Shown here: in pieces, positions 23,636 to 60,290 of the stretch
Position numbering within the stretch: position 1 is the stretch's first letter
Layout of the letters: each line of letters opens with the position of its first letter
Assembly (NCBI GenBank): GCA_048938105.1
Contig: JBHLMN010000007.1
Location: forward strand, 160,001-224,000
DNA: 64,000 nucleotides
DNA from: Promethearchaeota archaeon
Lineage (GTDB): Archaea > Asgardarchaeota > Heimdallarchaeia > Hodarchaeales > Hodarchaeaceae
Direction: 5' to 3'
Translations under genes and position numbers: made by a program
Notes under the pieces: model-generated
The model's input: the letters and a program-made list of their open reading frames with translations, nothing else
Told to the model about the DNA's origin: nothing
Database searches by the model: none

Positions 23636-26635
23636 TTAACGTCTTCTTCGCAAAAAAACAAGAATTAATAACATGGTTGAACCTACTATTAAATAAGAAA
23701 ACCCTGGTGATACATTAGGCTGTTCACTAGTCGTTGTTGAGGTGGATTCTGGCTCTGTCGTAGTAGGTTTCGTAGTTGTAGGTGGAATTGTAGTTGTAGG
23801 TCCGCTGGATTCAGGCTCAGGTATCTCAACTGTGAACCAAATAACAATAGATTTACCAGTATTACCCATAAGATCGCTGGCATAGAGAACAATCCTATGT
23901 GAACCTTCTGATAATGACTCTAACAAAGTGTTCCCTGTGATAGTCACATTAATGGATCTATCGAGAGAGTACCCGATCCAGGAAGTGGGTTCGTCGATTG
24001 TGAAATTAAGCCATATGTCAGTCATGTTATATGTTGTACTATTGGTCGGATTGGTTAAGATTATACTTGGAGCAAGAGTGTCCACTGTGAACCAAACAGT
24101 GCTAGATTCACCAGTATTACCCACAAGATCAGTTGCATAGAGAACAACCCTATGTGAACCTTCTGATAATGACCCTAACAAAGTGTTCTCTATGATAGTC
24201 CCATTAGCAGATCCATCAAGAGAGTACCCAATCCATGATGTAGGTTCATTAATTGAGAAATTTAACCAGATGTTACTTTCTGCATAAGAACTATTGGTTG
24301 GACTGATGATGACAATTTCTGGTGAAATTGGGTCAAAAAATTGGCCCCAAGTTCGGAATTCAAAGTCGAAATCTAGAAGTGGCGAACTGCTAACACCACG
24401 ATAATAATTAGATCCTGAATATCCACGCCAAAAATATCGATTATCGACATTGGGAGATGGGCTATCACTCCAAACATAGATGAAATAGGATTGACCTGGA
24501 ATCAGGGAGAGCGATGAAGGTACTAAAATAGGAACCCAACCTGTGACACTATCTGCTTCTAACACAGTGGTTTGCCATAGGGTATTTTGGCCATCAGTGA
24601 TGTTAACCAGCACATTCCCAGGATTTCCATTTTTCTGCAGATAGAGATCAATTTGAGTAAGATTAGCATACAAGGGAACAAATTCTTGCCACTGAATAAC
24701 TGTCTCCTCAAACCAATAACCGTAGTTTAATCCATCTTGTGCCTGATCTAGATATACACTTCTATCACAGACCAAACTTACTGTTCTAAATGTGAAATCA
24801 AAATCTGGAGCTGAAGTAATACTACTAATACCTCGTGTATAATTAGAGTTAAGATGTCCATCCCAAAAATAGCGATTACTTGCAGATGCGGAATCTGTAT
24901 CACTCCCTACGTAAATATAATAGGACTGATCTGGAATCAAAGGGATTGTTAAATTTGTTGGAATAATTACCCATCCGCCAGTAATATCAGCTTCTGATAG
25001 AAGAGTCTGCCATATAGTTTTTTGACCATCGGTAATATTTACTAACATGTTTCCAGGATTTCCCGATTTTTGGATGTTGAGATCTATCTGAGTTAGAGTA
25101 GGATAAAAGGGTTTAAACTCTTGCCATCGAATAACTGTGTCATCAAACCAATATCCATAATCCTCTTCTTCTTGTACTTGATCTAAGAATAAACTAATAT
25201 CACTTGATTGAGTCCATACCCGAAAAGCATAATCATAGGTCGGCCAACCTGATTGGACATTGGTGTCACCAAAGGTATAACTGGAAGTTATATGACCCAT
25301 CCAAGCATAATAATGTGTTCCTGGAACGTGAGGATCCACACTACGGACATAAATGTAATATGAATTACCTGGAATTAAGGGAAGGGTTGATGGGAAAGAA
25401 ATACTTACCCAACCTCCAGGCGCGGGAATCTCTGCTTCTAAGATAGTGGTATTCCAGATGGTAGCTTGACCATCTGTGATATTGACTAGAACATCCCCAG
25501 GGTCACCTGTCCTCTGGATATTAAGATCAAGTTGAGTTAATGTTGAAAATACTGGTTTAAATTCTTGCCATGCATTCCATGAATCACTAAAAACAAACCC
25601 ATAATTCACATCTTCCTGTGCTTGATCAAGGTAGGTAGCTGGATCACTGGGAATACTCCATGTTCTAAATGCAAAATCGAACGTTGGCCAACCAGCTGCT
25701 ACGCTATTTGTCCCACGATAATAATTTGAATTAGTGCTACCGTCCCAGAAATATTTATCCGTTGTGGTACTATTAGTATCACTATTTACATAAATAAAAT
25801 AGGATCGTTCTGGAATCAGAGGGAGTGCAGGATTTATTGATATATTTAACCAACCCCAAGGAAGTACAATATCTGCTTCCAACACAGTAGTGTGCCACAA
25901 AGTCCTTTCTCCATCTGAAATGTTAACTAATAAATTCCCTGGATTCCCATTTTTAACAATATAGAGATCTAAACGTGTCAAAGTTGAATATAATGGTTTG
26001 AATTCTTGCCAGCGGAATCCGTTAGCGTCAAACAAAAACCCATATGTATGTGAATTCTGGATTTGATCTAAATAGATTTCTCTGTCATTTGAGAGACTCC
26101 ATGTTACAAATGTGAAATCAAAATCTGGAGCTGAAGTAATACTACTAATACCTCGTGTATAATTAGAGTTAAGATGTCCATCCCAAACATAGCGATTACT
26201 TGGTGAAGTGGAATCTATATCACTCCTTACGTAGATGTAATATGACTGCTCTGGGATCAAGGGAAGAGCTGATTCCAGTGAGATATTCACCCATATGGCT
26301 CCACTGGCAATATCTGCTTCTAAAACAGTAGTATTCCAAAGACTTTTGAGGCCATCAGTAATATTGACGAGGATATTTCCAGGATTACCATTCTTATCAA
26401 CATTTAGATCTAGGCGAGTTAAAGTAGAATAAAGTGGTCTGAACTCTTGCCAGCGAATTGCTGTGTCATCAAACCAATAGCCGTAGTTCTCTTCCCCCTG
26501 CGTTTGGTCTAGATCTTCACCAATCTCATATGCACCTAGTGTTTGAATTGCAGATAAACCAGATAAAATTAATGAGAACATTACTAAAATCATAAAATTT
26601 GATTTTTTTTGTCTTTTGTTAAAGAATTTTAGCAT
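23636..26635 (-). CDS. Cell-surface glycoprotein: signal + 5 x ~147-aa repeats + 2 Ig-like repeats + Thr/Pro linker + PGF-CTERM
   Basis: Repeats begin LDQxQ and carry WQEFxP, GNPG, VNITDG and DFxFRTW. The C-terminus is SPGF-TM-RRRR. Confidence 0.9.
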   Translation of the reverse strand: MLKFFNKRQKKSNFMILVMFSLILSGLSAIQTLGAYEIGEDLDQTQGEENYGYWFDDTAIRWQEFRPLYSTLTRLDLNVDKNGNPGNILVNITDGLKSLWNTTVLEADIASGAIWVNISLESALPLIPEQSYYIYVRSDIDSTSPSNRYVWDGHLNSNYTRGISSITSAPDFDFTFVTWSLSNDREIYLDQIQNSHTYGFLFDANGFRWQEFKPLYSTLTRLDLYIVKNGNPGNLLVNISDGERTLWHTTVLEADIVLPWGWLNISINPALPLIPERSYFIYVNSDTNSTTTDKYFWDGSTNSNYYRGTNSVAAGWPTFDFAFRTWSIPSDPATYLDQAQEDVNYGFVFSDSWNAWQEFKPVFSTLTQLDLNIQRTGDPGDVLVNITDGQATIWNTTILEAEIPAPGGWVSISFPSTLPLIPGNSYYIYVRSVDPHVPGTHYYAWMGHITSSYTFGDTNVQSGWPTYDYAFRVWTQSSDISLFLDQVQEEEDYGYWFDDTVIRWQEFKPFYPTLTQIDLNIQKSGNPGNMLVNITDGQKTIWQTLLSEADITGGWVIIPTNLTIPLIPDQSYYIYVGSDTDSASASNRYFWDGHLNSNYTRGISSITSAPDFDFTFRTVSLVCDRSVYLDQAQDGLNYGYWFEETVIQWQEFVPLYANLTQIDLYLQKNGNPGNVLVNITDGQNTLWQTTVLEADSVTGWVPILVPSSLSLIPGQSYFIYVWSDSPSPNVDNRYFWRGYSGSNYYRGVSSSPLLDFDFEFRTWGQFFDPISPEIVIISPTNSSYAESNIWLNFSINEPTSWIGYSLDGSANGTIIENTLLGSLSEGSHRVVLYATDLVGNTGESSTVWFTVDTLAPSIILTNPTNSTTYNMTDIWLNFTIDEPTSWIGYSLDRSINVTITGNTLLESLSEGSHRIVLYASDLMGNTGKSIVIWFTVEIPEPESSGPTTTIPPTTTKPTTTEPESTSTTTSEQPNVSPGFSYLIVGSTMLLILVFLRRRR
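23830..24320 (-). repeat. Two 85-aa Ig-like repeats (255-bp offset)
   Basis: IWLNFxIxEPTSWIGYSLD...LSEGSHRxVLYAxDLxGNTG occurs twice. DNA from 23881 and from 24136 is highly similar. Confidence 0.9.
24345..26512 (-). repeat. Five intragenic tandem domain repeats
   Basis: LDQ starts at 26512, 26071, 25630, 25186 and 24751 (spacing 441/441/444/435 bp). Confidence 0.92.
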
Positions 26636-54822: not shown

Positions 54823-55995
54823 ATGAGACCAGATATTTCTTCTTTTCATATCATGATCAAACCGCATAGTTCTATTTGCAATCTAAATTGCCAGTATTGT
54901 TATTATCTGTCTAAAAAAAGACTTTATCCTAATTCCAATTACCGAATGAATGATAAAACATTGGAAGAATTCATAAAACAGTATCTTGAAGCACAAAAAA
55001 CACCTGTTGTCTCGTTTGGGTGGCAAGGAGGAGAACCAGCATTAATGGGCATAGATTTTTTTGAGAAAGTGATCCATTACCAAAAGAAATACAATAAGGA
55101 GGGAAAAAAAGTCGAGAACACTTTTCAAACCAATGGAACTTTACTCAATGAAGATTGGGGGCGTTTTTTCAAGAAACACAATTTCTTAATCGGAATTAGC
55201 ATTGATGGTCCTCCGAAAATGCATGATGTGTATCGAGTTGATCGAAAAGGGACTCCCACTTTTAACAAAGTGAAATTAGGGCTTGACATTCTTAAAAAAT
55301 ATGAAGTAGAATACAATATTCTCACCTGTGTCCATTCTGTGAATGTAAATCACCCATTAGAAGTGTATAAGTATTTAAGAGACGAATTACAAGTTAATTT
55401 TATCCAATTTATTCCTGTAGTTGAACGAAATATTGATGGGAGAGTTTCAGATTTTTCCACAACTGGAAGCCAATATGGTACTTTTTTACAGACTGTCTTT
55501 GATGAATGGGTTAGACATGATGTAGGAATGATTTTTATTCAAATTTTTGAGGTCGCTTTAGCTGCTTGGTTAAATTTACCCCTAAATTTGTGTACTTTCG
55601 CACCAAACTGTGGAAATGCGTTAGCTTTAGAGTACAATGGGGATATCTATGCTTGCGATCATTTTGTTACACCAGAGTACTTTCGTGGTAATTTATTATC
55701 ACAATCACTTAAAGAAATCGTAAATTCACTAGATCAAAAGGAATTTGGGTTGAAAAAATCTAGGTTACTCCCTCAAGAATGTCAGCAATGTGAAGTGAGA
55801 TTCGTATGTAATGGTGGATGCCCAAAAAACAGGTTTATTTCAACTGAAGAAAGAAACTCTGGATTAAATTATTTATGTGAGGGTTATAAGACTTTTTTTT
55901 CCTACATCGATCCTTATATGAAGTACATGGCAGATCAACTAAAGAGAAATAGACCTGCTACCAATATCATGGAATACTTAAAAGAGAAATCATAA
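54823..55995 (+). CDS. Anaerobic sulfatase-maturating radical SAM/SPASM enzyme
   Basis: CNLNCQYCYY, WQGGEP, QTNG, CDHFV, CNGGCPK, YLCEG. Confidence 0.95.
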   Translation: MRPDISSFHIMIKPHSSICNLNCQYCYYLSKKRLYPNSNYRMNDKTLEEFIKQYLEAQKTPVVSFGWQGGEPALMGIDFFEKVIHYQKKYNKEGKKVENTFQTNGTLLNEDWGRFFKKHNFLIGISIDGPPKMHDVYRVDRKGTPTFNKVKLGLDILKKYEVEYNILTCVHSVNVNHPLEVYKYLRDELQVNFIQFIPVVERNIDGRVSDFSTTGSQYGTFLQTVFDEWVRHDVGMIFIQIFEVALAAWLNLPLNLCTFAPNCGNALALEYNGDIYACDHFVTPEYFRGNLLSQSLKEIVNSLDQKEFGLKKSRLLPQECQQCEVRFVCNGGCPKNRFISTEERNSGLNYLCEGYKTFFSYIDPYMKYMADQLKRNRPATNIMEYLKEKS

Positions 55996-56087
55996 TAAGA
56001 AATATTATTAATGTTAAAAATAATACAACCAGTATTATCAACCTAGAAGATGTATTTTCGTCTCAAGTCTCATTAATTTCCAATAAG

Positions 56088-57398
56088 ATGAGGAATATGA
56101 ATCAACCATCCGAATCTAATCCAAATATCTTATTTATCATCACTCATGATACTGGGGATCTTTTTTATGACAAAGGGATAGAAACACCAAACCTAGATCA
56201 ATTGGCTCGAACTGGTGTAATGTTTACAAATAATTTTTGCATAGCTCCCCAGTGTTCTCCTTCTCGTGGTAGTATTCTCACTGGACAAGTGCCACACACA
56301 CACGGATTAATGGGATTAACAAACTATGGCTGGAATTTGGATTCAAAGATCACAATTGCCAAAATTCTTGCCAAAAACGGCTACTCAACGCATTTAATTG
56401 GATTACAGCATGAACATGAGGATGCAAAAGAACTCGGTTATCAAAATATCTCTGATCGTAACATCATGCCTTGGGTAGATAACGTCGTTCCCCAAGTAAA
56501 CGAATTCTTAACAAGAGCTAATCAGGGGAAGGTTCCACAACCATTCTATTGTGCCATTGGCTTTTTTGATACCCATAGGCCCTTCATTTTTCCTGAGGAT
56601 ATTTCTGTTCCTTTCAAAAACGAAATTTTGGTTCCTAGTTTTCTACCAGACACACCTGAAGTGAGAACGGATATTTCAGAATTATATTCATCGATTAAAA
56701 CAGTAGATAGAGGAATTGGACATATCCTTGACATTTTAAAATCGTGTTCTTACTATGAAAATACAATAGTTATTCTTACCGTTGATCATGGACCAGCTTT
56801 TCCACGAGCGAAATGTACTCTGTATGACACAGGAATTCGGACTGCGCTCATTTTCAGCTGGCCAAAAAAGATTAAGCAAGGAATGATACGGACTGAATTG
56901 ATCTCTAACATAGATTTATTACCATCAATCTTAGATATTGTCGATATTCCGATCCCCGATGAAATACAAGGACATAGCTTCAAAAATCTTCTTTTTAATG
57001 AAGAATATAAGGAACAGGAGTGCATTTTTGCAGAATTAACATATCACGATATTGGCTATAATCCTATCAGAGCAGTTAGAACAAAAAAATGGAAATATAT
57101 CAAGAATTTTAAAGCTCTTGACATATTATTCGAAATACCTGAAGATGTGATCGAAAGTCCATCAGGAAAAGCTTGGCTTAGCAAACATCCTGAATATTAC
57201 TCCACTAGACCAAACGAAGAGTTGTATGATCTGATGACTGATCCAATGGAAGTAATAAATTTAGCTAATAATCCCCAATATCAATCTATCAAACAAAAAT
57301 TAGATAAGAAACTTATGGATTGGTTGAAAAAGACAAATGATCCAATTTTAACGAAGAACTTTATTGAGGACACTTCAAGGAGAATGAAGATTGAATGA
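56088..57398 (+). CDS. Cys-type sulfatase (sulfamidase-like)
   Basis: CSPSRGSILTG, DTHRP, DHG, ELYDL. No signal peptide. Confidence 0.95.
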   Translation: MRNMNQPSESNPNILFIITHDTGDLFYDKGIETPNLDQLARTGVMFTNNFCIAPQCSPSRGSILTGQVPHTHGLMGLTNYGWNLDSKITIAKILAKNGYSTHLIGLQHEHEDAKELGYQNISDRNIMPWVDNVVPQVNEFLTRANQGKVPQPFYCAIGFFDTHRPFIFPEDISVPFKNEILVPSFLPDTPEVRTDISELYSSIKTVDRGIGHILDILKSCSYYENTIVILTVDHGPAFPRAKCTLYDTGIRTALIFSWPKKIKQGMIRTELISNIDLLPSILDIVDIPIPDEIQGHSFKNLLFNEEYKEQECIFAELTYHDIGYNPIRAVRTKKWKYIKNFKALDILFEIPEDVIESPSGKAWLSKHPEYYSTRPNEELYDLMTDPMEVINLANNPQYQSIKQKLDKKLMDWLKKTNDPILTKNFIEDTSRRMKIE

Positions 57399-58008
57399 AA
57401 TTATTTGGGCTACCCCACTTTATTTATTCTTAAAATATTGCAATGAGAGTTCATTAGATAAAGTAATTCTTGATTGCGGTGCAGGAGGAGAATCTCCTCC
57501 ATTAGCCCTTTTCTATCAATACGATTACGAAACAAATGGAATTGATATTTCTGATAAAGCTTTAGAGGAATCTCATCTATTTTGTAAGGAGAATAACATA
57601 AATTTAAATATTACAAAAGGAGATATGAGGAAAATTCCGTTTGAAGACGAGTCTATGAGTTTTGTTTATTCTTTAGATTCGATTATATTTTTATCAAAAG
57701 ATGACACTCAAATAGCTATTAAAGAGATTGAAAGAGTCTTGAGAACAGATGGACTGTGTTTTATAAATTTTAAATCGATTGATGATGAAGATTACAATAA
57801 AGGGGAGCCAATGGGCAATAATGAATTTAAACTTGATAATGAATGGACAGAAGGGGAGATGGTATGCTCTTTCTATGAAGATAATGAACCTGATGCTTAT
57901 TTTGGCAATTTTGAAATTCTCCGCAAAGAAAAAAGGATTGTAGATTGTTTTTGTATTGAGAATGGTCACAGAATTGGGTATATTGATTATATTGGTAGAA
58001 AAAAATAA
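57391..58008 (+). CDS. Class I SAM-dependent methyltransferase
   Basis: LDCGAGG, GDMR, EIERVL. Confidence 0.9.
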   Translation: MNEIIWATPLYLFLKYCNESSLDKVILDCGAGGESPPLALFYQYDYETNGIDISDKALEESHLFCKENNINLNITKGDMRKIPFEDESMSFVYSLDSIIFLSKDDTQIAIKEIERVLRTDGLCFINFKSIDDEDYNKGEPMGNNEFKLDNEWTEGEMVCSFYEDNEPDAYFGNFEILRKEKRIVDCFCIENGHRIGYIDYIGRKK

Positions 58009-58155
58009 TCTATCGTTCAATCACTCATTTTCCCTTTCATAACTTATTTAAAAAGAAATTAAAGGATTTTTAGGGGAAAGATTCAATTCGGGAAGATTTA
58101 AAAAATTCTTTCTCTATAATTACATATTTTCAGGAAGAAAAGTGGTGACAATAGA

Positions 58156-58776
58156 ATGAAAACAAATCAAATTATTAGAATAATAATTCCTTTGGTACTC
58201 CTTTTAGGGGCTGCCACTACCTTTTTTGTGGCAGTTCTGGGCAACCAACAGGCAAATACCTCAGCAGAGGATATACAAAAGGCAAATACAACCACAAGTA
58301 GTTTTATTATGTACCTATATGTAGAAGGCATCCCTGGAGAAGTTATAGAACAAGATCATGAAGAATGGATTGAAGTACTCGCTTATTCCCATAATATACA
58401 AACCCCCTATAATGTTGGCACAGGACAAACTGCTGGAAGCGTAGAGAACGCCCCCCTCCGAATCACTAAGATGGTAGATAAGGCATCTCCCAAATTATAC
58501 CAAGCTTGTTATACTGGAAGTGTGAAACCTTTAGTTGAACTAGATTTCTGCATGACTAATACTGCCCAAGATGTGTTTTACAACATTGAACTTGAAAATG
58601 CCAAAATTGTGTCCGTCCAAGACTTTGGAGTATTATCAGGAGACTATCCAACAGAAACAGTTTCATTCACTTACGAAAGATTCAAATGGACATATATAGA
58701 GTACGATGCTCAGGGACAACCCAAAGGACCTATAGAATCAGGTTGGATCTATTGGAGTGACGAAACCCCTATTTAA
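58156..58776 (+). CDS. hcp: Hcp (T6SS tube)-family protein with N-terminal signal/TM segment
   Basis: MYLYVEGIPGE...HEEWIEV, LRITKMVDKASPKLYQAC, IELENAKIVSV, ETVSFTYERFKWTY and GW, all preceded by a ~48-aa extension. Confidence 0.88.
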   Translation: MKTNQIIRIIIPLVLLLGAATTFFVAVLGNQQANTSAEDIQKANTTTSSFIMYLYVEGIPGEVIEQDHEEWIEVLAYSHNIQTPYNVGTGQTAGSVENAPLRITKMVDKASPKLYQACYTGSVKPLVELDFCMTNTAQDVFYNIELENAKIVSVQDFGVLSGDYPTETVSFTYERFKWTYIEYDAQGQPKGPIESGWIYWSDETPI

Positions 58777-58811
58777 CCCTTACAAACAAATTATATAGCT
58801 GTTGAATTACA

Positions 58812-59552
58812 ATGAAAATGTCTAAGACATTTTTAATTCCCTTACTCCTATTGATTTTAGCCATTGGTACCTTTCCTACACTAGCTTTCGCAAATACTTC
58901 CAATGAAGAATATATTGAAGTTCACCAAGTGATTCAGAATGGACCTAATATATTGATTGAATTAGATTATGACTTGAGTTCAACTTCTTTACTTGATACT
59001 AATGAATCATTGGCAGTCTTAGTAATATTTAGTGATTCTACAAACGAGGATACTCTCACCATTCAAGCAGCGATGTTATTCTTTCACACGGATGACAATC
59101 AATTTCTCCTTTTTTGGATGCTTGGAGACCCCTTTAAACAAGCCCAAAACTGGCAGGAAGGTACTGAAAATGAGCACTTTCAGACTGATGGTGACCAATT
59201 AACACTCACTTTCATCGAATTCGTAGGTGCTCAGGAACCAGAGATTACAGTCTCAGTATATGCCAGGATTACCTCTAGTGAAATAAATGCCTATACGACC
59301 GATTTTCGAATAGTTCTAGATCAATTCATTGAGGAATTGACAACACAAACTACATCTGAGGAGACTTCTGGCCCCCTGACTACAGGAAAAACAACTTCAT
59401 CAACTACAGGAACAGGAAAAACAGAAAGAACCACATCTACAAAAGAATCATCTCAAACAAAAACGGATATTGCATCAGGATTCACTATCCTCTCAATTTT
59501 TGGTATTCTCCTTTCAGTGGTCATCATAAAAAGATTTACTCGGAAAAATTAA
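58812..59552 (+). CDS. Secreted surface protein with Thr-rich linker and SGF-TM-basic C-terminal anchor
   Basis: Signal ending ...LAFA, acidic domain, TTQTTSEETSG...TTST linker, ASGFTILSIFGILLSVVIIKRFTRKN. Confidence 0.85.
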   Translation: MKMSKTFLIPLLLLILAIGTFPTLAFANTSNEEYIEVHQVIQNGPNILIELDYDLSSTSLLDTNESLAVLVIFSDSTNEDTLTIQAAMLFFHTDDNQFLLFWMLGDPFKQAQNWQEGTENEHFQTDGDQLTLTFIEFVGAQEPEITVSVYARITSSEINAYTTDFRIVLDQFIEELTTQTTSEETSGPLTTGKTTSSTTGTGKTERTTSTKESSQTKTDIASGFTILSIFGILLSVVIIKRFTRKN

Positions 59553-59663
59553 GGTTTATTAAAACCTATTGATATCAAAAAGGCGTTAAGCACCAGCTAA
59601 ACTCTTTTGGACAAATACAGGCTTAGCATGCAATTTACTTATGAGTCTGTACTCTAAGATTTA

Positions 59664-60290
59664 TTATAAAGTCTGAATTTTCGTTCCAATATAACTAATT
59701 TCACCCAATTTAAGTTGAATTTCTCCTTCATTATATCTATAAATCACTCTATTTTCTTTATGAAGGAGCTCAAAATTTTTAAAATATGCATCAGCCTCAT
59801 TAATGGTATGAAAAGAATGGAGTGCTGTTTCATTCTCACCTATGGGCAATAAATATTCTCCCTCACCGATTTTTTCACCTCGTTCACCGATCTCTGAATC
59901 TTCCGACATAAAATTGACATAGCATAATCCATTTATTACCAAGACTCTTTCGATTTCTTTCATTGCAATAGAAATATCTTTTTTCGATAGATGCATGATT
60001 GTATTATATGAATAAACAAAGGAAAAACTTTCATCATCAAAATTTAAATCTCTCATATCACCTATCTTAATATTTAGGTCAAGATTATACTTATCACAGA
60101 AATCTTTTGTGTTCTTGATTGCTTGTTCACTAACATCTATTCCAAAGGTTTTATAACCATTTCTGTAAAACAAGTAAAGAGGGGACTCCCTTCCACCAGC
60201 TCCACAATCAAGTACTTTTTTTTCTAGGTTTGTTTTGTTGCATAATCGTAAAAACTCATATAAGGGAGTTGCACGAGAAATAAATTCCAA
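59664..60290 (-). CDS. Class I SAM-dependent methyltransferase (paralogue of 57391-58008)
   Basis: ATPLYEFLRLCN, LDCGAGG, GDMR, EIERVL. Confidence 0.9.
   Translation of the reverse strand: MEFISRATPLYEFLRLCNKTNLEKKVLDCGAGGRESPLYLFYRNGYKTFGIDVSEQAIKNTKDFCDKYNLDLNIKIGDMRDLNFDDESFSFVYSYNTIMHLSKKDISIAMKEIERVLVINGLCYVNFMSEDSEIGERGEKIGEGEYLLPIGENETALHSFHTINEADAYFKNFELLHKENRVIYRYNEGEIQLKLGEISYIGTKIQTL

What the first reader, a model, noticed from the sequence alone, without database searches (positions are those of the whole stretch)
58156..59552. Orphan, signal-bearing Hcp paired with a sortase-type anchored surface protein: candidate T6SS-independent surface ring/tube system in an archaeon
Seen: a complete Hcp-like domain preceded by a basic-then-hydrophobic N-terminus (MKTNQIIRIIIPLVLLLGAATTFFVAVLG) and a polar linker with two N-glycosylation sequons (NTS, NTT). 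A co-oriented gene starts 35 bp downstream with signal peptide, acidic domain, Thr-rich stalk and SGF-TM-KR tail. No TssB/C, VgrG, PAAR or baseplate gene is recognisable in the 64 kb. Known: canonical Hcp has no signal peptide, forms hexameric rings that stack into the T6SS inner tube, and leaves the cell only through the T6SS. Inference: this Hcp has been rerouted to Sec export or membrane anchoring and repurposed as an extracellular ring, filament or scaffold, possibly docked on the CTERM partner.
Basis: partly seen in the sequence, partly recalled or inferred. Interest (0 to 1): 0.85.

Follow-up and report, generated by a model that had tools for sequence, protein, structure and literature searches.

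The report
Membrane-anchored Hcp with surface partner
An Asgard (Hodarchaeales-type) archaeon with no injection machinery carries the bacterial type VI "syringe tube" protein Hcp behind a conserved membrane anchor, always next to the same surface-tethered glycoprotein gene, so the tube fold seems to have been reused as a two-protein cell-surface device whose job is still unknown.

Summary
Window 58156-58776 encodes a 206-aa protein with a full Hcp domain (Pfam 119 bits, TIGR03344 95 bits) behind a basic N-terminus, a 21-residue hydrophobic helix and an acidic linker with an N-glycosylation sequon. A second gene starts 35 nt downstream (58812-59552). It encodes a signal peptide, an acidic beta-sandwich of no known family, a Thr-rich stalk and an SGF-TM-basic tail.

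The 99%-complete genome has one Hcp and no TssC, VgrG/gpD, gp25, TssF, phage sheath or T4-type tube. None of 21 genomes of the genus has TssC or a phage sheath.

The leader is translated and selected: dN/dS is 0.13-0.19, and the leader is more conserved than the Hcp domain. The internal Met is not conserved.

The gene pair is adjacent in every locus examined: 12 relatives, two paralogous second copies, two other Asgard families and a metagenomic outgroup. The Hcp and partner trees agree.

The tail is archaeosortase-type, not sortase-type. Two orthologous tails pass NCBIfam Heimdall-CTERM, and the genome encodes two heimdallarchaeosortases.

Ring formation and Hcp-partner binding remain untested.

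This scan found the same pair before in other genomes. I found no paper describing it. About half of the nearest Hcp relatives elsewhere also carry export leaders, and some are six-domain single chains.

The parts
58115..58122 (+). TATA-like box (TATAATTA), 34 nt upstream of the Hcp start codon. Candidate archaeal promoter element.
   Evidence: Read directly from the sequence. Its function is inferred and was not tested.
58144..58148 (+). Shine-Dalgarno-like GGTGA, 7 nt before the ATG at 58156.
   Evidence: Read directly from the sequence. It supports 58156 as the true start.
58156..58776 (+). Gene for the membrane-anchored Hcp-domain protein (206 aa).
   Evidence: ORF. PF05638 119 bits. TIGR03344 95.3 bits. 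About 40 homologues of the same architecture in Hodarchaeales/Heimdall-type MAGs.
58156..58242 (+). Codons 1-29. Basic cytoplasmic N-terminus (residues 1-8, net +2) and a 21-residue hydrophobic helix (9-29) with P12 nearly invariant and G18 invariant. Predicted uncleaved signal-anchor with N-in/C-out topology.
   Evidence: Helix 3-29 in the model. Pairwise identity 63% (1-8) and 60% (9-29), against 52% for the Hcp domain. Positive-inside charge pattern in all 38 members. Invariant G18 and nearly invariant P12. dN/dS 0.13-0.19 for codons 1-49.
58243..58302 (+). Codons 30-49. Disordered, net-acidic linker with sequons N34-T-S (58255-58263, conserved in most orthologues) and N44-T-T (58285-58293, not conserved).
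   Evidence: pLDDT below 50 for residues 28-47. Sequon and charge table.
58303..58773 (+). Codons 50-206. Complete Hcp (TssD) beta-barrel domain.
   Evidence: Full-length profile match. PDB sequence hits 7FCF 1e-26, 4W64, 1Y12. Structural match with TM-score by target up to 0.91.
58777..58811 (+). 35-nt spacer between the two co-oriented genes.
   Evidence: The same tight adjacency is seen in all related loci.
58812..59552 (+). Gene for the partner surface glycoprotein (246 aa), an orphan family with no Pfam or NCBIfam model for the ectodomain.
   Evidence: ORF. No family match. 29 homologue clusters, all 'hypothetical' and from Hodarchaeales/Heimdall-type MAGs, on the same contigs as the Hcp homologues.
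58812..58892 (+). Codons 1-27. Classical signal peptide ending in A-F-A.
   Evidence: Sequence. Helix 5-19 in the model. A signal-peptide-like N-terminus is present in all orthologues.
58893..59363 (+). Codons 28-184. Acidic (pI 4.05) beta-sandwich ectodomain plus helix 166-184. Invariant W102, W114, F134 and A151.
   Evidence: Model pLDDT above 90 over residues 32-170. Invariant columns. Only generic Ig-like or CBM-like sandwich matches: Z at most 6.6 and TM at most 0.59.
59364..59474 (+). Codons 185-221. Disordered Thr/Ser-rich stalk, probably O-glycosylated.
   Evidence: pLDDT below 50 for residues 183-221. 21 Ser+Thr in 40 residues. Stalk length varies among orthologues.
59475..59549 (+). 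Codons 222-246. Tripartite sorting tail: SGF motif, hydrophobic stretch 225-239 and a basic end. Heimdall-CTERM-like archaeosortase signal.
   Evidence: NF045529 scores 15.9 bits, below the 24-bit cut-off. Orthologous tails score 26.6 and 29.6 bits and pass. The genome has two heimdallarchaeosortases at 261 and 252 bits and 13 other tails above the cut-off.

Best explanation
This is a conserved two-gene operon for a cell-surface complex that works without any type VI or other contractile machinery.

Gene 1 gives a type II membrane protein. A short basic N-terminus stays in the cytoplasm. A conserved 21-residue helix spans the membrane and is kept, not cleaved. A roughly 20-residue acidic linker, N-glycosylated at Asn34, holds a complete Hcp domain just outside the membrane. 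By homology with every solved Hcp, that domain most likely assembles into a six-membered ring. The ring would then be tethered by six helices. The six linkers on one face should favour a single tethered ring over a long tube.

Gene 2 gives a Sec-exported protein. Its signal peptide is cleaved after A-F-A. Its acidic beta-sandwich head sits on a Thr-rich, probably O-glycosylated stalk. Its SGF-TM-basic tail is most likely cut by one of the genome's two heimdallarchaeosortases and replaced by a lipid, as ArtA does for PGF-CTERM proteins in Haloferax.

Both proteins therefore end up tethered to the outer face of the same membrane. They most likely act together as a structural, adhesive or binding element of the Asgard cell envelope.

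Shown: domain identities, the conserved and selected leader, absence of T6SS/CIS genes, strict pair conservation and co-divergence, presence of the sorting enzyme.

Inferred: topology, non-cleavage of the anchor, glycosylation, ring assembly, lipid anchoring, physical contact, and the biological role.
For: Hcp identity:
- Pfam, TIGR03344 and PDB sequence matches.
- Structural match to solved Hcp1.

The leader is real and selected:
- Conserved in about 38 members.
- More conserved than the Hcp domain; positive-inside charge pattern; a sequon directly after the helix.
- dN/dS 0.13-0.19.
- Shine-Dalgarno sequence before the ATG.
- The internal Met is absent in many orthologues.
- The hydrophobic run is 21 residues, which is TM length. 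No consistent small-x-small cleavage site follows it across orthologues.

No machinery:
- One Hcp, and no TssC, gpD/VgrG, phage sheath, gp25, TssF or gp19 tube in the 99%-complete genome. PAAR gives only an 18.8-bit sub-threshold hit.
- TssC and phage sheath absent from 21 of 21 genomes of the genus.

Pair coupling:
- Adjacent and co-oriented in 12 of 12 relatives, and beside both paralogous second copies examined.
- Adjacent in two other Asgard families.
- Adjacent next to the metagenomic outgroups P0208 (hhalign 96.7%) and P0110.
- Nothing else in the neighbourhood is conserved.
- The Hcp and partner trees share all well-supported groups, including {G015b, P0208, G062} at 97/97.
- Both genes are under purifying selection.

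Anchor of the partner:
- Heimdall-CTERM is the best NCBIfam hit for 7 of 11 tails tested, and 2 of them pass the cut-off.
- Two heimdallarchaeosortases.
- 13 other tails in the genome pass the cut-off.
- The ArtA mechanism is taken from PMC6098224.

Six-unit logic outside T6SS: among the nearest Hcp relatives, 19 of 34 multi-domain chains have exactly six Hcp domains.
Against: No direct evidence was obtained for ring assembly, for retention of the anchor or for Hcp-partner contact.

The window's own tail scores below the curated Heimdall-CTERM cut-off (15.9 against 24 bits). At E<=1 that model also gives sub-threshold hits in 11 of 14 control genomes.

No signal-peptide or TM predictor was available, so a cleaved long signal peptide cannot be excluded.

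The partner's fold gave only generic beta-sandwich matches, so it gives no functional clue.

Adjacent genes share history by linkage alone, so congruent trees are weak evidence for binding.

No expression data could be obtained.
Confidence: 0.6

Rival explanations
1. The N-terminal helix is a long, cleavable Sec signal peptide. Hcp is released as a soluble extracellular ring or stacks into free tubes or filaments. The partner is only the docking or nucleation site on the cell.
For: The basic-hydrophobic-polar layout also fits a signal peptide. Some orthologues have V-x-G or A-x-G before the polar stretch. Many bacterial relatives carry textbook cleavable signal peptides directly before the Hcp domain.
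Against: The hydrophobic run is 21 residues, which is TM length. The residues at the putative -3 and -1 positions are not consistently small across orthologues. The helix is more conserved (60%) than the Hcp domain itself (52%) and has an invariant G18 and a nearly invariant P12. That is unusual for a discarded leader.
Confidence: 0.17
2. The two proteins are independent surface proteins that merely share a transcript. They do not touch. Hcp has its own role, for example as a binding ring for some ligand, and the partner is one of many Heimdall-CTERM glycoproteins.
For: The genome has many Heimdall-CTERM surface proteins. No interface could be supported computationally.
Against: The pair is strictly adjacent in every locus across at least three Asgard families and two ancient paralogue lineages, while all other neighbours change. 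Partner-family homologues lie on the same contigs as Hcp homologues.
Confidence: 0.13
3. This Hcp still serves an unrecognised, highly divergent contractile or injection machine encoded elsewhere in the genome.
For: Profile searches can miss very divergent sheath or baseplate proteins. The genome is a 65-contig assembly with 7% contamination.
Against: Eight core families were searched in a 99%-complete genome and none passed. TssC and phage sheath were absent from 21 of 21 genomes, including single-contig ones. A membrane-spanning leader with an extracytoplasmic glycosylation sequon does not fit cytoplasmic tube assembly.
Confidence: 0.04
4. The pair is a decaying remnant of a horizontally acquired T6SS, eCIS or prophage tail module and has no present function.
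For: Hcp is of bacterial origin. The nearest relatives outside the Asgard clade are metagenomic proteins of unassigned origin.
Against: The frames are intact in all genomes. dN/dS is 0.11-0.49 for both genes. The pair is kept in 16 of 20 species of the genus and in two other families. It has been duplicated as a unit. No phage genes lie nearby.
Confidence: 0.02

Closest known systems
Hcp / TssD, inner-tube protein of bacterial type VI secretion (Pfam PF05638, NCBIfam TIGR03344; solved examples 7FCF, A. baumannii 4W64, P. aeruginosa Hcp1 1Y12, E. tarda EvpC 3EAA)
   Same: Complete Hcp domain by sequence (119 and 95 bits; PDB E down to 1e-26). Same predicted fold (TM-score by target 0.75-0.91).
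   Different: It carries a conserved N-terminal membrane helix and a glycosylation linker. The host is an archaeon. No sheath, VgrG, baseplate, PAAR or TssF is present in the genome or genus. It has an obligatory orphan surface partner. Canonical Hcp has no export signal, assembles in the cytoplasm and leaves only through the T6SS (established knowledge).
Heimdall-CTERM / heimdallarchaeosortase sorting system (NCBIfam NF045529 / NF045528), a relative of PGF-CTERM / ArtA of Haloferax volcanii
   Same: The partner ends in a small-Gly-Phe motif, a hydrophobic stretch and a basic cluster after a Thr-rich stalk. Two orthologous tails pass NF045529. The genome encodes two heimdallarchaeosortases.
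   Different: The window's own tail (SGF, 15.9 bits) is below the 24-bit cut-off. Some orthologues have variant motifs such as KGFPG, SGL or SGIG. Processing and lipid attachment have been shown only for ArtA substrates in haloarchaea (PMC6098224), not for any Asgard protein.
Leader-bearing Hcp proteins outside the Asgard clade, and six-domain single-chain Hcp proteins (metagenomic; at least one six-domain gene in Planctomycetota; no paper found)
   Same: Among the 150 best relatives of this Hcp domain, about 60 single-domain proteins have a signal peptide or TM helix directly before the Hcp domain. The two contexts checked had no T6SS genes within 10 kb either side. The rows nearest the Asgard clade in the tree all carry leaders.
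   Different: Most of these have short cleavable-looking signal peptides rather than a conserved anchor. The partner family was found only beside the archaeal-type members. Their taxonomy is mostly unknown here.
Tail-tube proteins of myophages and extracellular contractile injection systems (T4 gp19 family; Afp1/Pvc1-type tubes)
   Same: Same tube-protein fold superfamily as Hcp (established knowledge).
   Different: No gp19-family tube, sheath, gp25 or gpD homologue was found in the genome. No phage genes lie around the pair.

Membership tests
Hcp / TssD (sequence and fold family) | PF05638 and TIGR03344 matches above the curated cut-offs, covering the whole domain | tested here: met
   119 bits against 23.5, profile 1-129 of 129. 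95.3 bits against 58.9.
Hcp / TssD (sequence and fold family) | Hcp beta-barrel fold | tested here: met
   AlphaFold model pLDDT above 90 over most of residues 50-200. Foldseek against 4W64, 7FCF, 1Y12 and 8YUN: E 1e-14 to 1e-16, TM-score by target 0.75-0.91.
Functional T6SS inner tube | Genome encodes the T6SS core (TssB/C sheath, VgrG, TssE/F/G/K baseplate) | tested here: not met
   No TssC, gpD/VgrG, gp25/TssE or TssF in the 99%-complete genome. TssC absent from 21 of 21 genomes of the genus.
Functional T6SS inner tube | Cytoplasmic protein without a signal peptide or TM segment | tested here: not met
   Conserved basic N-terminus plus a 21-residue hydrophobic helix before the domain. Positive-inside charge pattern. 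dN/dS 0.13-0.19. Topology is inferred; no dedicated predictor was available.
Functional T6SS inner tube | Hexameric ring that stacks head-to-tail into a tube | not testable with these tools
Needs AF-multimer or EM.
Phage / eCIS contractile tail module | Sheath, gp19-type tube and baseplate genes present | tested here: not met
   PF04984, PF06841, PF04965 and PF05954 gave no hit in the genome. Phage sheath absent from 21 of 21 genomes of the genus.
Heimdall-CTERM surface protein (NF045529) | C-terminal tail scores above the curated cut-off of 24 bits | tested here: inconclusive
   The window tail scores 15.9 bits and Heimdall-CTERM is its only hit. Orthologues L015 (26.6 bits) and L024 (29.6 bits) pass. 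Four more orthologues score 13-15 bits with it as top hit. Four tails gave no hit.
Heimdall-CTERM surface protein (NF045529) | Cognate heimdallarchaeosortase (NF045528) encoded in the same genome | tested here: met
   Two intact genes at 261.4 and 251.8 bits, cut-off 130. A third exosortase-like locus has an in-frame TGA.
Heimdall-CTERM surface protein (NF045529) | Tail is cleaved and replaced by a lipid anchor | not testable with these tools
   Known only for ArtA substrates in Haloferax (PMC6098224). Needs mass spectrometry on Asgard material.
Archaeal type IV pilin-like (class III signal peptide) protein | [K/R]-[G/A/S] cleavage site directly before the hydrophobic stretch | tested here: not met
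   The junction is R8-I9 in the window and R/K followed by I/L in the orthologues. No Gly, Ala or Ser at position -1. The motif definition comes from my own knowledge.

The most novel reading that the evidence does not exclude
The Hcp ring has a second, widespread life outside the cytoplasm that is independent of injection machines. Bacteria (signal-peptide Hcps, and six-domain single-chain 'one-ring' proteins in Planctomycetota) and Asgard archaea (membrane-anchored Hcp plus a dedicated lipid-anchored partner) would all use exported Hcp rings as a cell-envelope module. In the Asgard version, six anchor helices and the partner would build a defined ring-shaped surface complex. That complex could correspond to some of the unassigned surface densities of Asgard cells.
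Probability: 0.35. Interest if true: 0.85.

Novelty: new variant of a known kind. Interest (0 to 1): 0.7.

Why it matters
Hcp is a textbook marker gene for type VI secretion. Genome annotation calls every copy a "T6SS effector/tube protein", as NCBI and JGI did for these archaeal genes.

Here the fold is complete and conserved in organisms with no injection machinery. It is wired for the outside of the membrane and has co-evolved with an orphan partner. This has three consequences.

- Hcp alone should not be read as evidence of a T6SS.
- It points to an undescribed surface complex in Hodarchaeales, the Asgard lineage currently placed closest to eukaryotes. Almost nothing is known of the cell envelope of that lineage.
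- It connects to a much larger, apparently undescribed class of exported Hcp proteins, including single chains of exactly six Hcp domains.

The two ectodomains are small and soluble-looking. Ring formation and binding can therefore be tested directly by expression, SEC-MALS and EM.

Tried and rejected
- Complex prediction of Hcp 48-206 with partner 28-184, both with alignments. Scores were 0.15 and 0.00 against a mark of 0.32, so there is no verdict either way.
- Fold searches with the partner model. Foldseek PDB gave nothing at E<=1e-3. VIA wide gave only generic Ig-like or CBM-like sandwiches at Z<=6.6. The ESM Atlas search by shape gave TM<=0.49. BFVD gave only overall 'signal peptide, Ig domain, stalk, TM' glycoprotein likeness at TM<=0.3. 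The Atlas protein look-up gave no hit by features and unnamed sandwich clusters at TM<=0.59 by structure. No fold family is assigned; this does not show that the fold is new.
No read laying was done.
- The first phylum-wide Hcp search failed. It was repeated with 150 genomes.
- PF09721 for archaeosortase gave one sub-threshold hit and missed Haloferax ArtA in the controls. It was replaced by TIGR04178 and NF045528.
- Literature. Searching Hcp + Asgard + type VI secretion found 0 papers. Hcp + Heimdallarchaeota found one unrelated paper. Neither '7FCF' nor 'orphan Hcp' + signal peptide gave anything relevant. Searching tandem Hcp domains + Planctomycetes found nothing on the subject.
- Lipobox rejected: the leader has no Cys. 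Class III pilin-type signal rejected: no G/A/S before the hydrophobic run.
- The apparent truncation of the partner in G015 is an N-run assembly gap, not a broken gene.
- Neighbouring genes (pirin, radical-SAM/SPASM maturase, sulfatase, two methyltransferases, DUF6144) are not conserved beside the pair in relatives. They are not counted as parts.
Full report
**1. What is there**

Two co-oriented ORFs lie at the stated coordinates: 58156..58776 (206 aa) and 58812..59552 (246 aa). They are 35 nt apart.

The first ORF carries a complete Hcp domain.
- Pfam T6SS_HCP gives E 2e-34, residues 53-180 against profile positions 1-129 of 129.
- TIGR03344 gives 95.3 bits against a cut-off of 58.9.
- The best solved relatives are T6SS Hcp structures: 7FCF (1e-26), 4W64, 3EAA and 1Y12.
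- The AlphaFold model built from 38 family members has a helix at 3-29, a disordered stretch at 28-47 and a confident Hcp barrel at 50-200.
- The barrel superposes on solved Hcp1 structures with TM-score by target 0.75-0.91 and rmsd 1.6-3.0 A.

The second ORF has no Pfam or NCBIfam family for its body. Its model shows, in order:
- a signal-peptide helix;
- a confident beta-sandwich (pLDDT above 90 over about residues 32-170; the 28-182 ectodomain has pI 4.05);
- a helix at 166-184;
- a disordered Thr/Ser stalk at 183-221;
- a terminal TM helix.

**2. Is the N-terminal extension real?**

Yes. About 40 homologues of roughly 200 aa share it. They come from MAGs labelled Heimdallarchaeota, Hodarchaeota, Hodarchaeales or Promethearchaeota. 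More distant leaderless Hcps in the same search begin directly at the Hcp domain.
- Mean pairwise identity is 63% for residues 1-8 and 60% for the helix 9-29. It is 40% for the linker and 52% for the Hcp domain.
- G18 is invariant and P12 nearly invariant.
- For codons 1-49, dN/dS against four orthologues is 0.13-0.19.
- A GGTGA lies 7 nt before the ATG at 58156, and a TATA-like box lies 34 nt upstream.
- The internal Met proposed as an alternative start is replaced by Ala or other residues in many orthologues.

The hydrophobic run is 21 residues. The N-terminus is always net positive (+1 to +6). The linker is neutral to net negative (0 to -5). An N-x-S/T sequon follows the helix in most members.

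I read this as an uncleaved signal-anchor with the Hcp domain outside. A long cleaved signal peptide is the main alternative, and I could not run a dedicated predictor.

**3. Is there any injection machinery?**

The window lies in a 5.85-Mb genome that is 99% complete with 7% contamination. That genome has:
- exactly one Hcp hit;
- no TssC/VipB, Phage_GPD/VgrG, phage sheath, gp25/TssE, TssF or T4 gp19 tube;
- for PAAR, only an 18.8-bit hit below the 27-bit cut-off.

TssC and phage sheath are also absent from all 21 genomes of the genus, including single-contig assemblies. These are profile searches, so very divergent machinery cannot be strictly excluded.

**4. Is the pair a unit?**

Yes, on every count I could test.
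- In 12 of 12 relatives the partner homologue lies directly downstream of the Hcp homologue.
- With 8-kb flanks, only these two genes are shared by all loci. The two paralogous second copies examined (G015, G004) also have their own partner beside them.
- In a sample of 150 genomes of the phylum, Hcp occurs in 5 of 6 genomes of this genus and in two genomes of other families. Both of those have a TM-Hcp followed by a gene with a signal peptide, a sandwich and a hydrophobic-basic tail; the G062 tail has a PGF motif.
- The metagenomic outgroup P0208 is followed by a protein that matches the partner profile at 96.7% hhalign probability.
- P0110 is followed by a partner gene interrupted by a sequence gap.
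- The protein after P0182 matches only weakly, at 26%.
- The Hcp and partner trees agree on every well-supported group. This includes a deep clade that joins G015's second copy, P0208 and G062 (97 in both trees).
- Partner dN/dS is 0.13-0.24.
- An apparent truncation of the partner in G015 is an N-run assembly gap.

**5. The anchor of the partner**

The tail (SGF, a hydrophobic stretch, then KRFTRKN) has Heimdall-CTERM (NF045529) as its only NCBIfam hit. The score is 15.9 bits against a cut-off of 24.
- Two orthologous tails pass, at 26.6 and 29.6 bits. Four more score 13-15 bits with Heimdall-CTERM as top hit. Four gave no hit.
- The genome encodes two intact heimdallarchaeosortases (NF045528, 261 and 252 bits).
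- It also encodes 13 other tails above the cut-off.

By analogy with ArtA and PGF-CTERM in Haloferax, the tail would be cleaved and replaced by a lipid (PMC6098224). For this protein that step is inference.

**6. What the partner looks like**

It is a beta-sandwich with no specific relative.
- Foldseek PDB found nothing significant.
- VIA-align wide gave only generic Ig-like or CBM-like sandwiches at Z<=6.6.
- The ESM Atlas, by shape and by look-up, gave unnamed clusters at TM<=0.59.
- BFVD gave only overall glycoprotein architecture.

**7. Wider context**

A full phmmer scan of 1.84 billion representatives with the Hcp domain gave 6,227 hits. Among the best 150:
- About 60 single-domain proteins carry a signal peptide or TM helix directly before the Hcp domain.
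- 34 are multi-domain chains, and 19 of those have exactly six Hcp domains.
- Many six-domain chains start with a Planctomycete-type leader. One sits among PSCyt2/PSD1 genes with no T6SS gene within 10 kb.
- A signal-peptide Hcp on a 121-kb contig sits beside a second Hcp gene, with no T6SS gene within 10 kb.

In a FastTree of 187 domains the Asgard anchored Hcps form one clade of 39 (support 95). The nearest outside rows all carry leaders. That tree is unrooted and its deep support is modest, so I draw no donor from it.

The six-domain chains suggest that the six-unit ring is also the working form outside T6SS. This gives indirect support for ring assembly here.

**8. Mechanism, with odds**

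- Both proteins end on the outer face of the membrane: about 0.85.
- The Hcp anchor is retained: about 0.7.
- The Hcp domain forms rings: about 0.6.
- The two proteins bind each other: about 0.55.
- A long tube or filament forms: about 0.1. Six linkers on one ring face would hinder stacking, though this is inference.

The biological role is open: a structural envelope element, an adhesin or a ligand-binding ring. My overall confidence in the tethered two-protein surface complex is 0.6.

**9. Known or new?**

The fold and both sorting signals are known. Several features were not described in any paper I could find:
- the combination of the two proteins;
- the archaeal host;
- the absence of any machine;
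- the dedicated partner family.

The library searched lacks most subscription journals. Public annotation names these genes 'T6SS effector/tube protein Hcp'.

This scan had already found the same pair in other Asgard genomes, and exported Hcps in Verrucomicrobiota, Omnitrophota and another archaeon. My tests agree with those notes and were made independently on this genome.

I class the finding as a new variant of a known kind and score interest at 0.7.

Noticed in passing
P0071-P0217; L033:10001-13300: At least 19 metagenomic proteins of 970-2164 aa hold exactly six tandem Hcp domains. Many start with a Planctomycete-type 'LE-x-LE-x-RRLLA' leader. One lies among PSCyt2/PSD1 genes with no T6SS gene within 10 kb. 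A single chain may fold into one pseudo-hexameric Hcp ring.
   Followed up: partly
P0099, P0103, P0104, P0109, P0112, P0119, P0121, P0126, P0127 and others; L032:9406-10768: About 60 of the 150 nearest Hcp relatives are single-domain proteins with a classical signal peptide or TM helix right before the Hcp domain. One subgroup shares a 'GGSLEP...PTMHTL..IY' linker. P0099 sits beside a second Hcp gene on a 121-kb contig with no T6SS gene within 10 kb.
   Followed up: partly
window 57391-58008 (+) and 59664-60290 (-): Two paralogous class I SAM methyltransferases, 49% identical, flank the Hcp pair in inverted orientation. In the closest relative (G003) the pirin gene lies directly upstream of Hcp. 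The radical-SAM/SPASM maturase, sulfatase and upstream methyltransferase (54823-58008) therefore look like an insertion or rearrangement in this genome.
   Followed up: partly
G000:C39:7848-8054 (L027): A third exosortase/archaeosortase-family match (TIGR04178, 37.5 bits) with an in-frame TGA and no long ORF. It may be a broken third archaeosortase gene.
   Followed up: no
window 23639-23710 (-): A near-threshold Heimdall-CTERM tail (23.4 against 24 bits) at the end of a 1005-aa open frame. This is another large predicted surface protein in the same window. Genome-wide, 13 tails pass the cut-off and dozens more lie just below it at the ends of long frames.
   Followed up: no
G015:C1:507519-508070, G004:C17:14092-14658, G003:C97, G018:C27, G012:C136; L024, L025: Several genomes of the genus carry a second, divergent Hcp copy (29-37% identity). 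Both copies examined (L024, L025) have their own partner gene beside them. G015's second pair groups with the pair of another Asgard family (G062) in both trees, so the pair has at least two old lineages.
   Followed up: partly
window 59552-59567: A perfect 6-bp inverted repeat (AGGTTT ATTA AAACCT) overlaps the last base of the partner's stop codon. It may be a transcript-end hairpin. It is short and was not tested.
   Followed up: no
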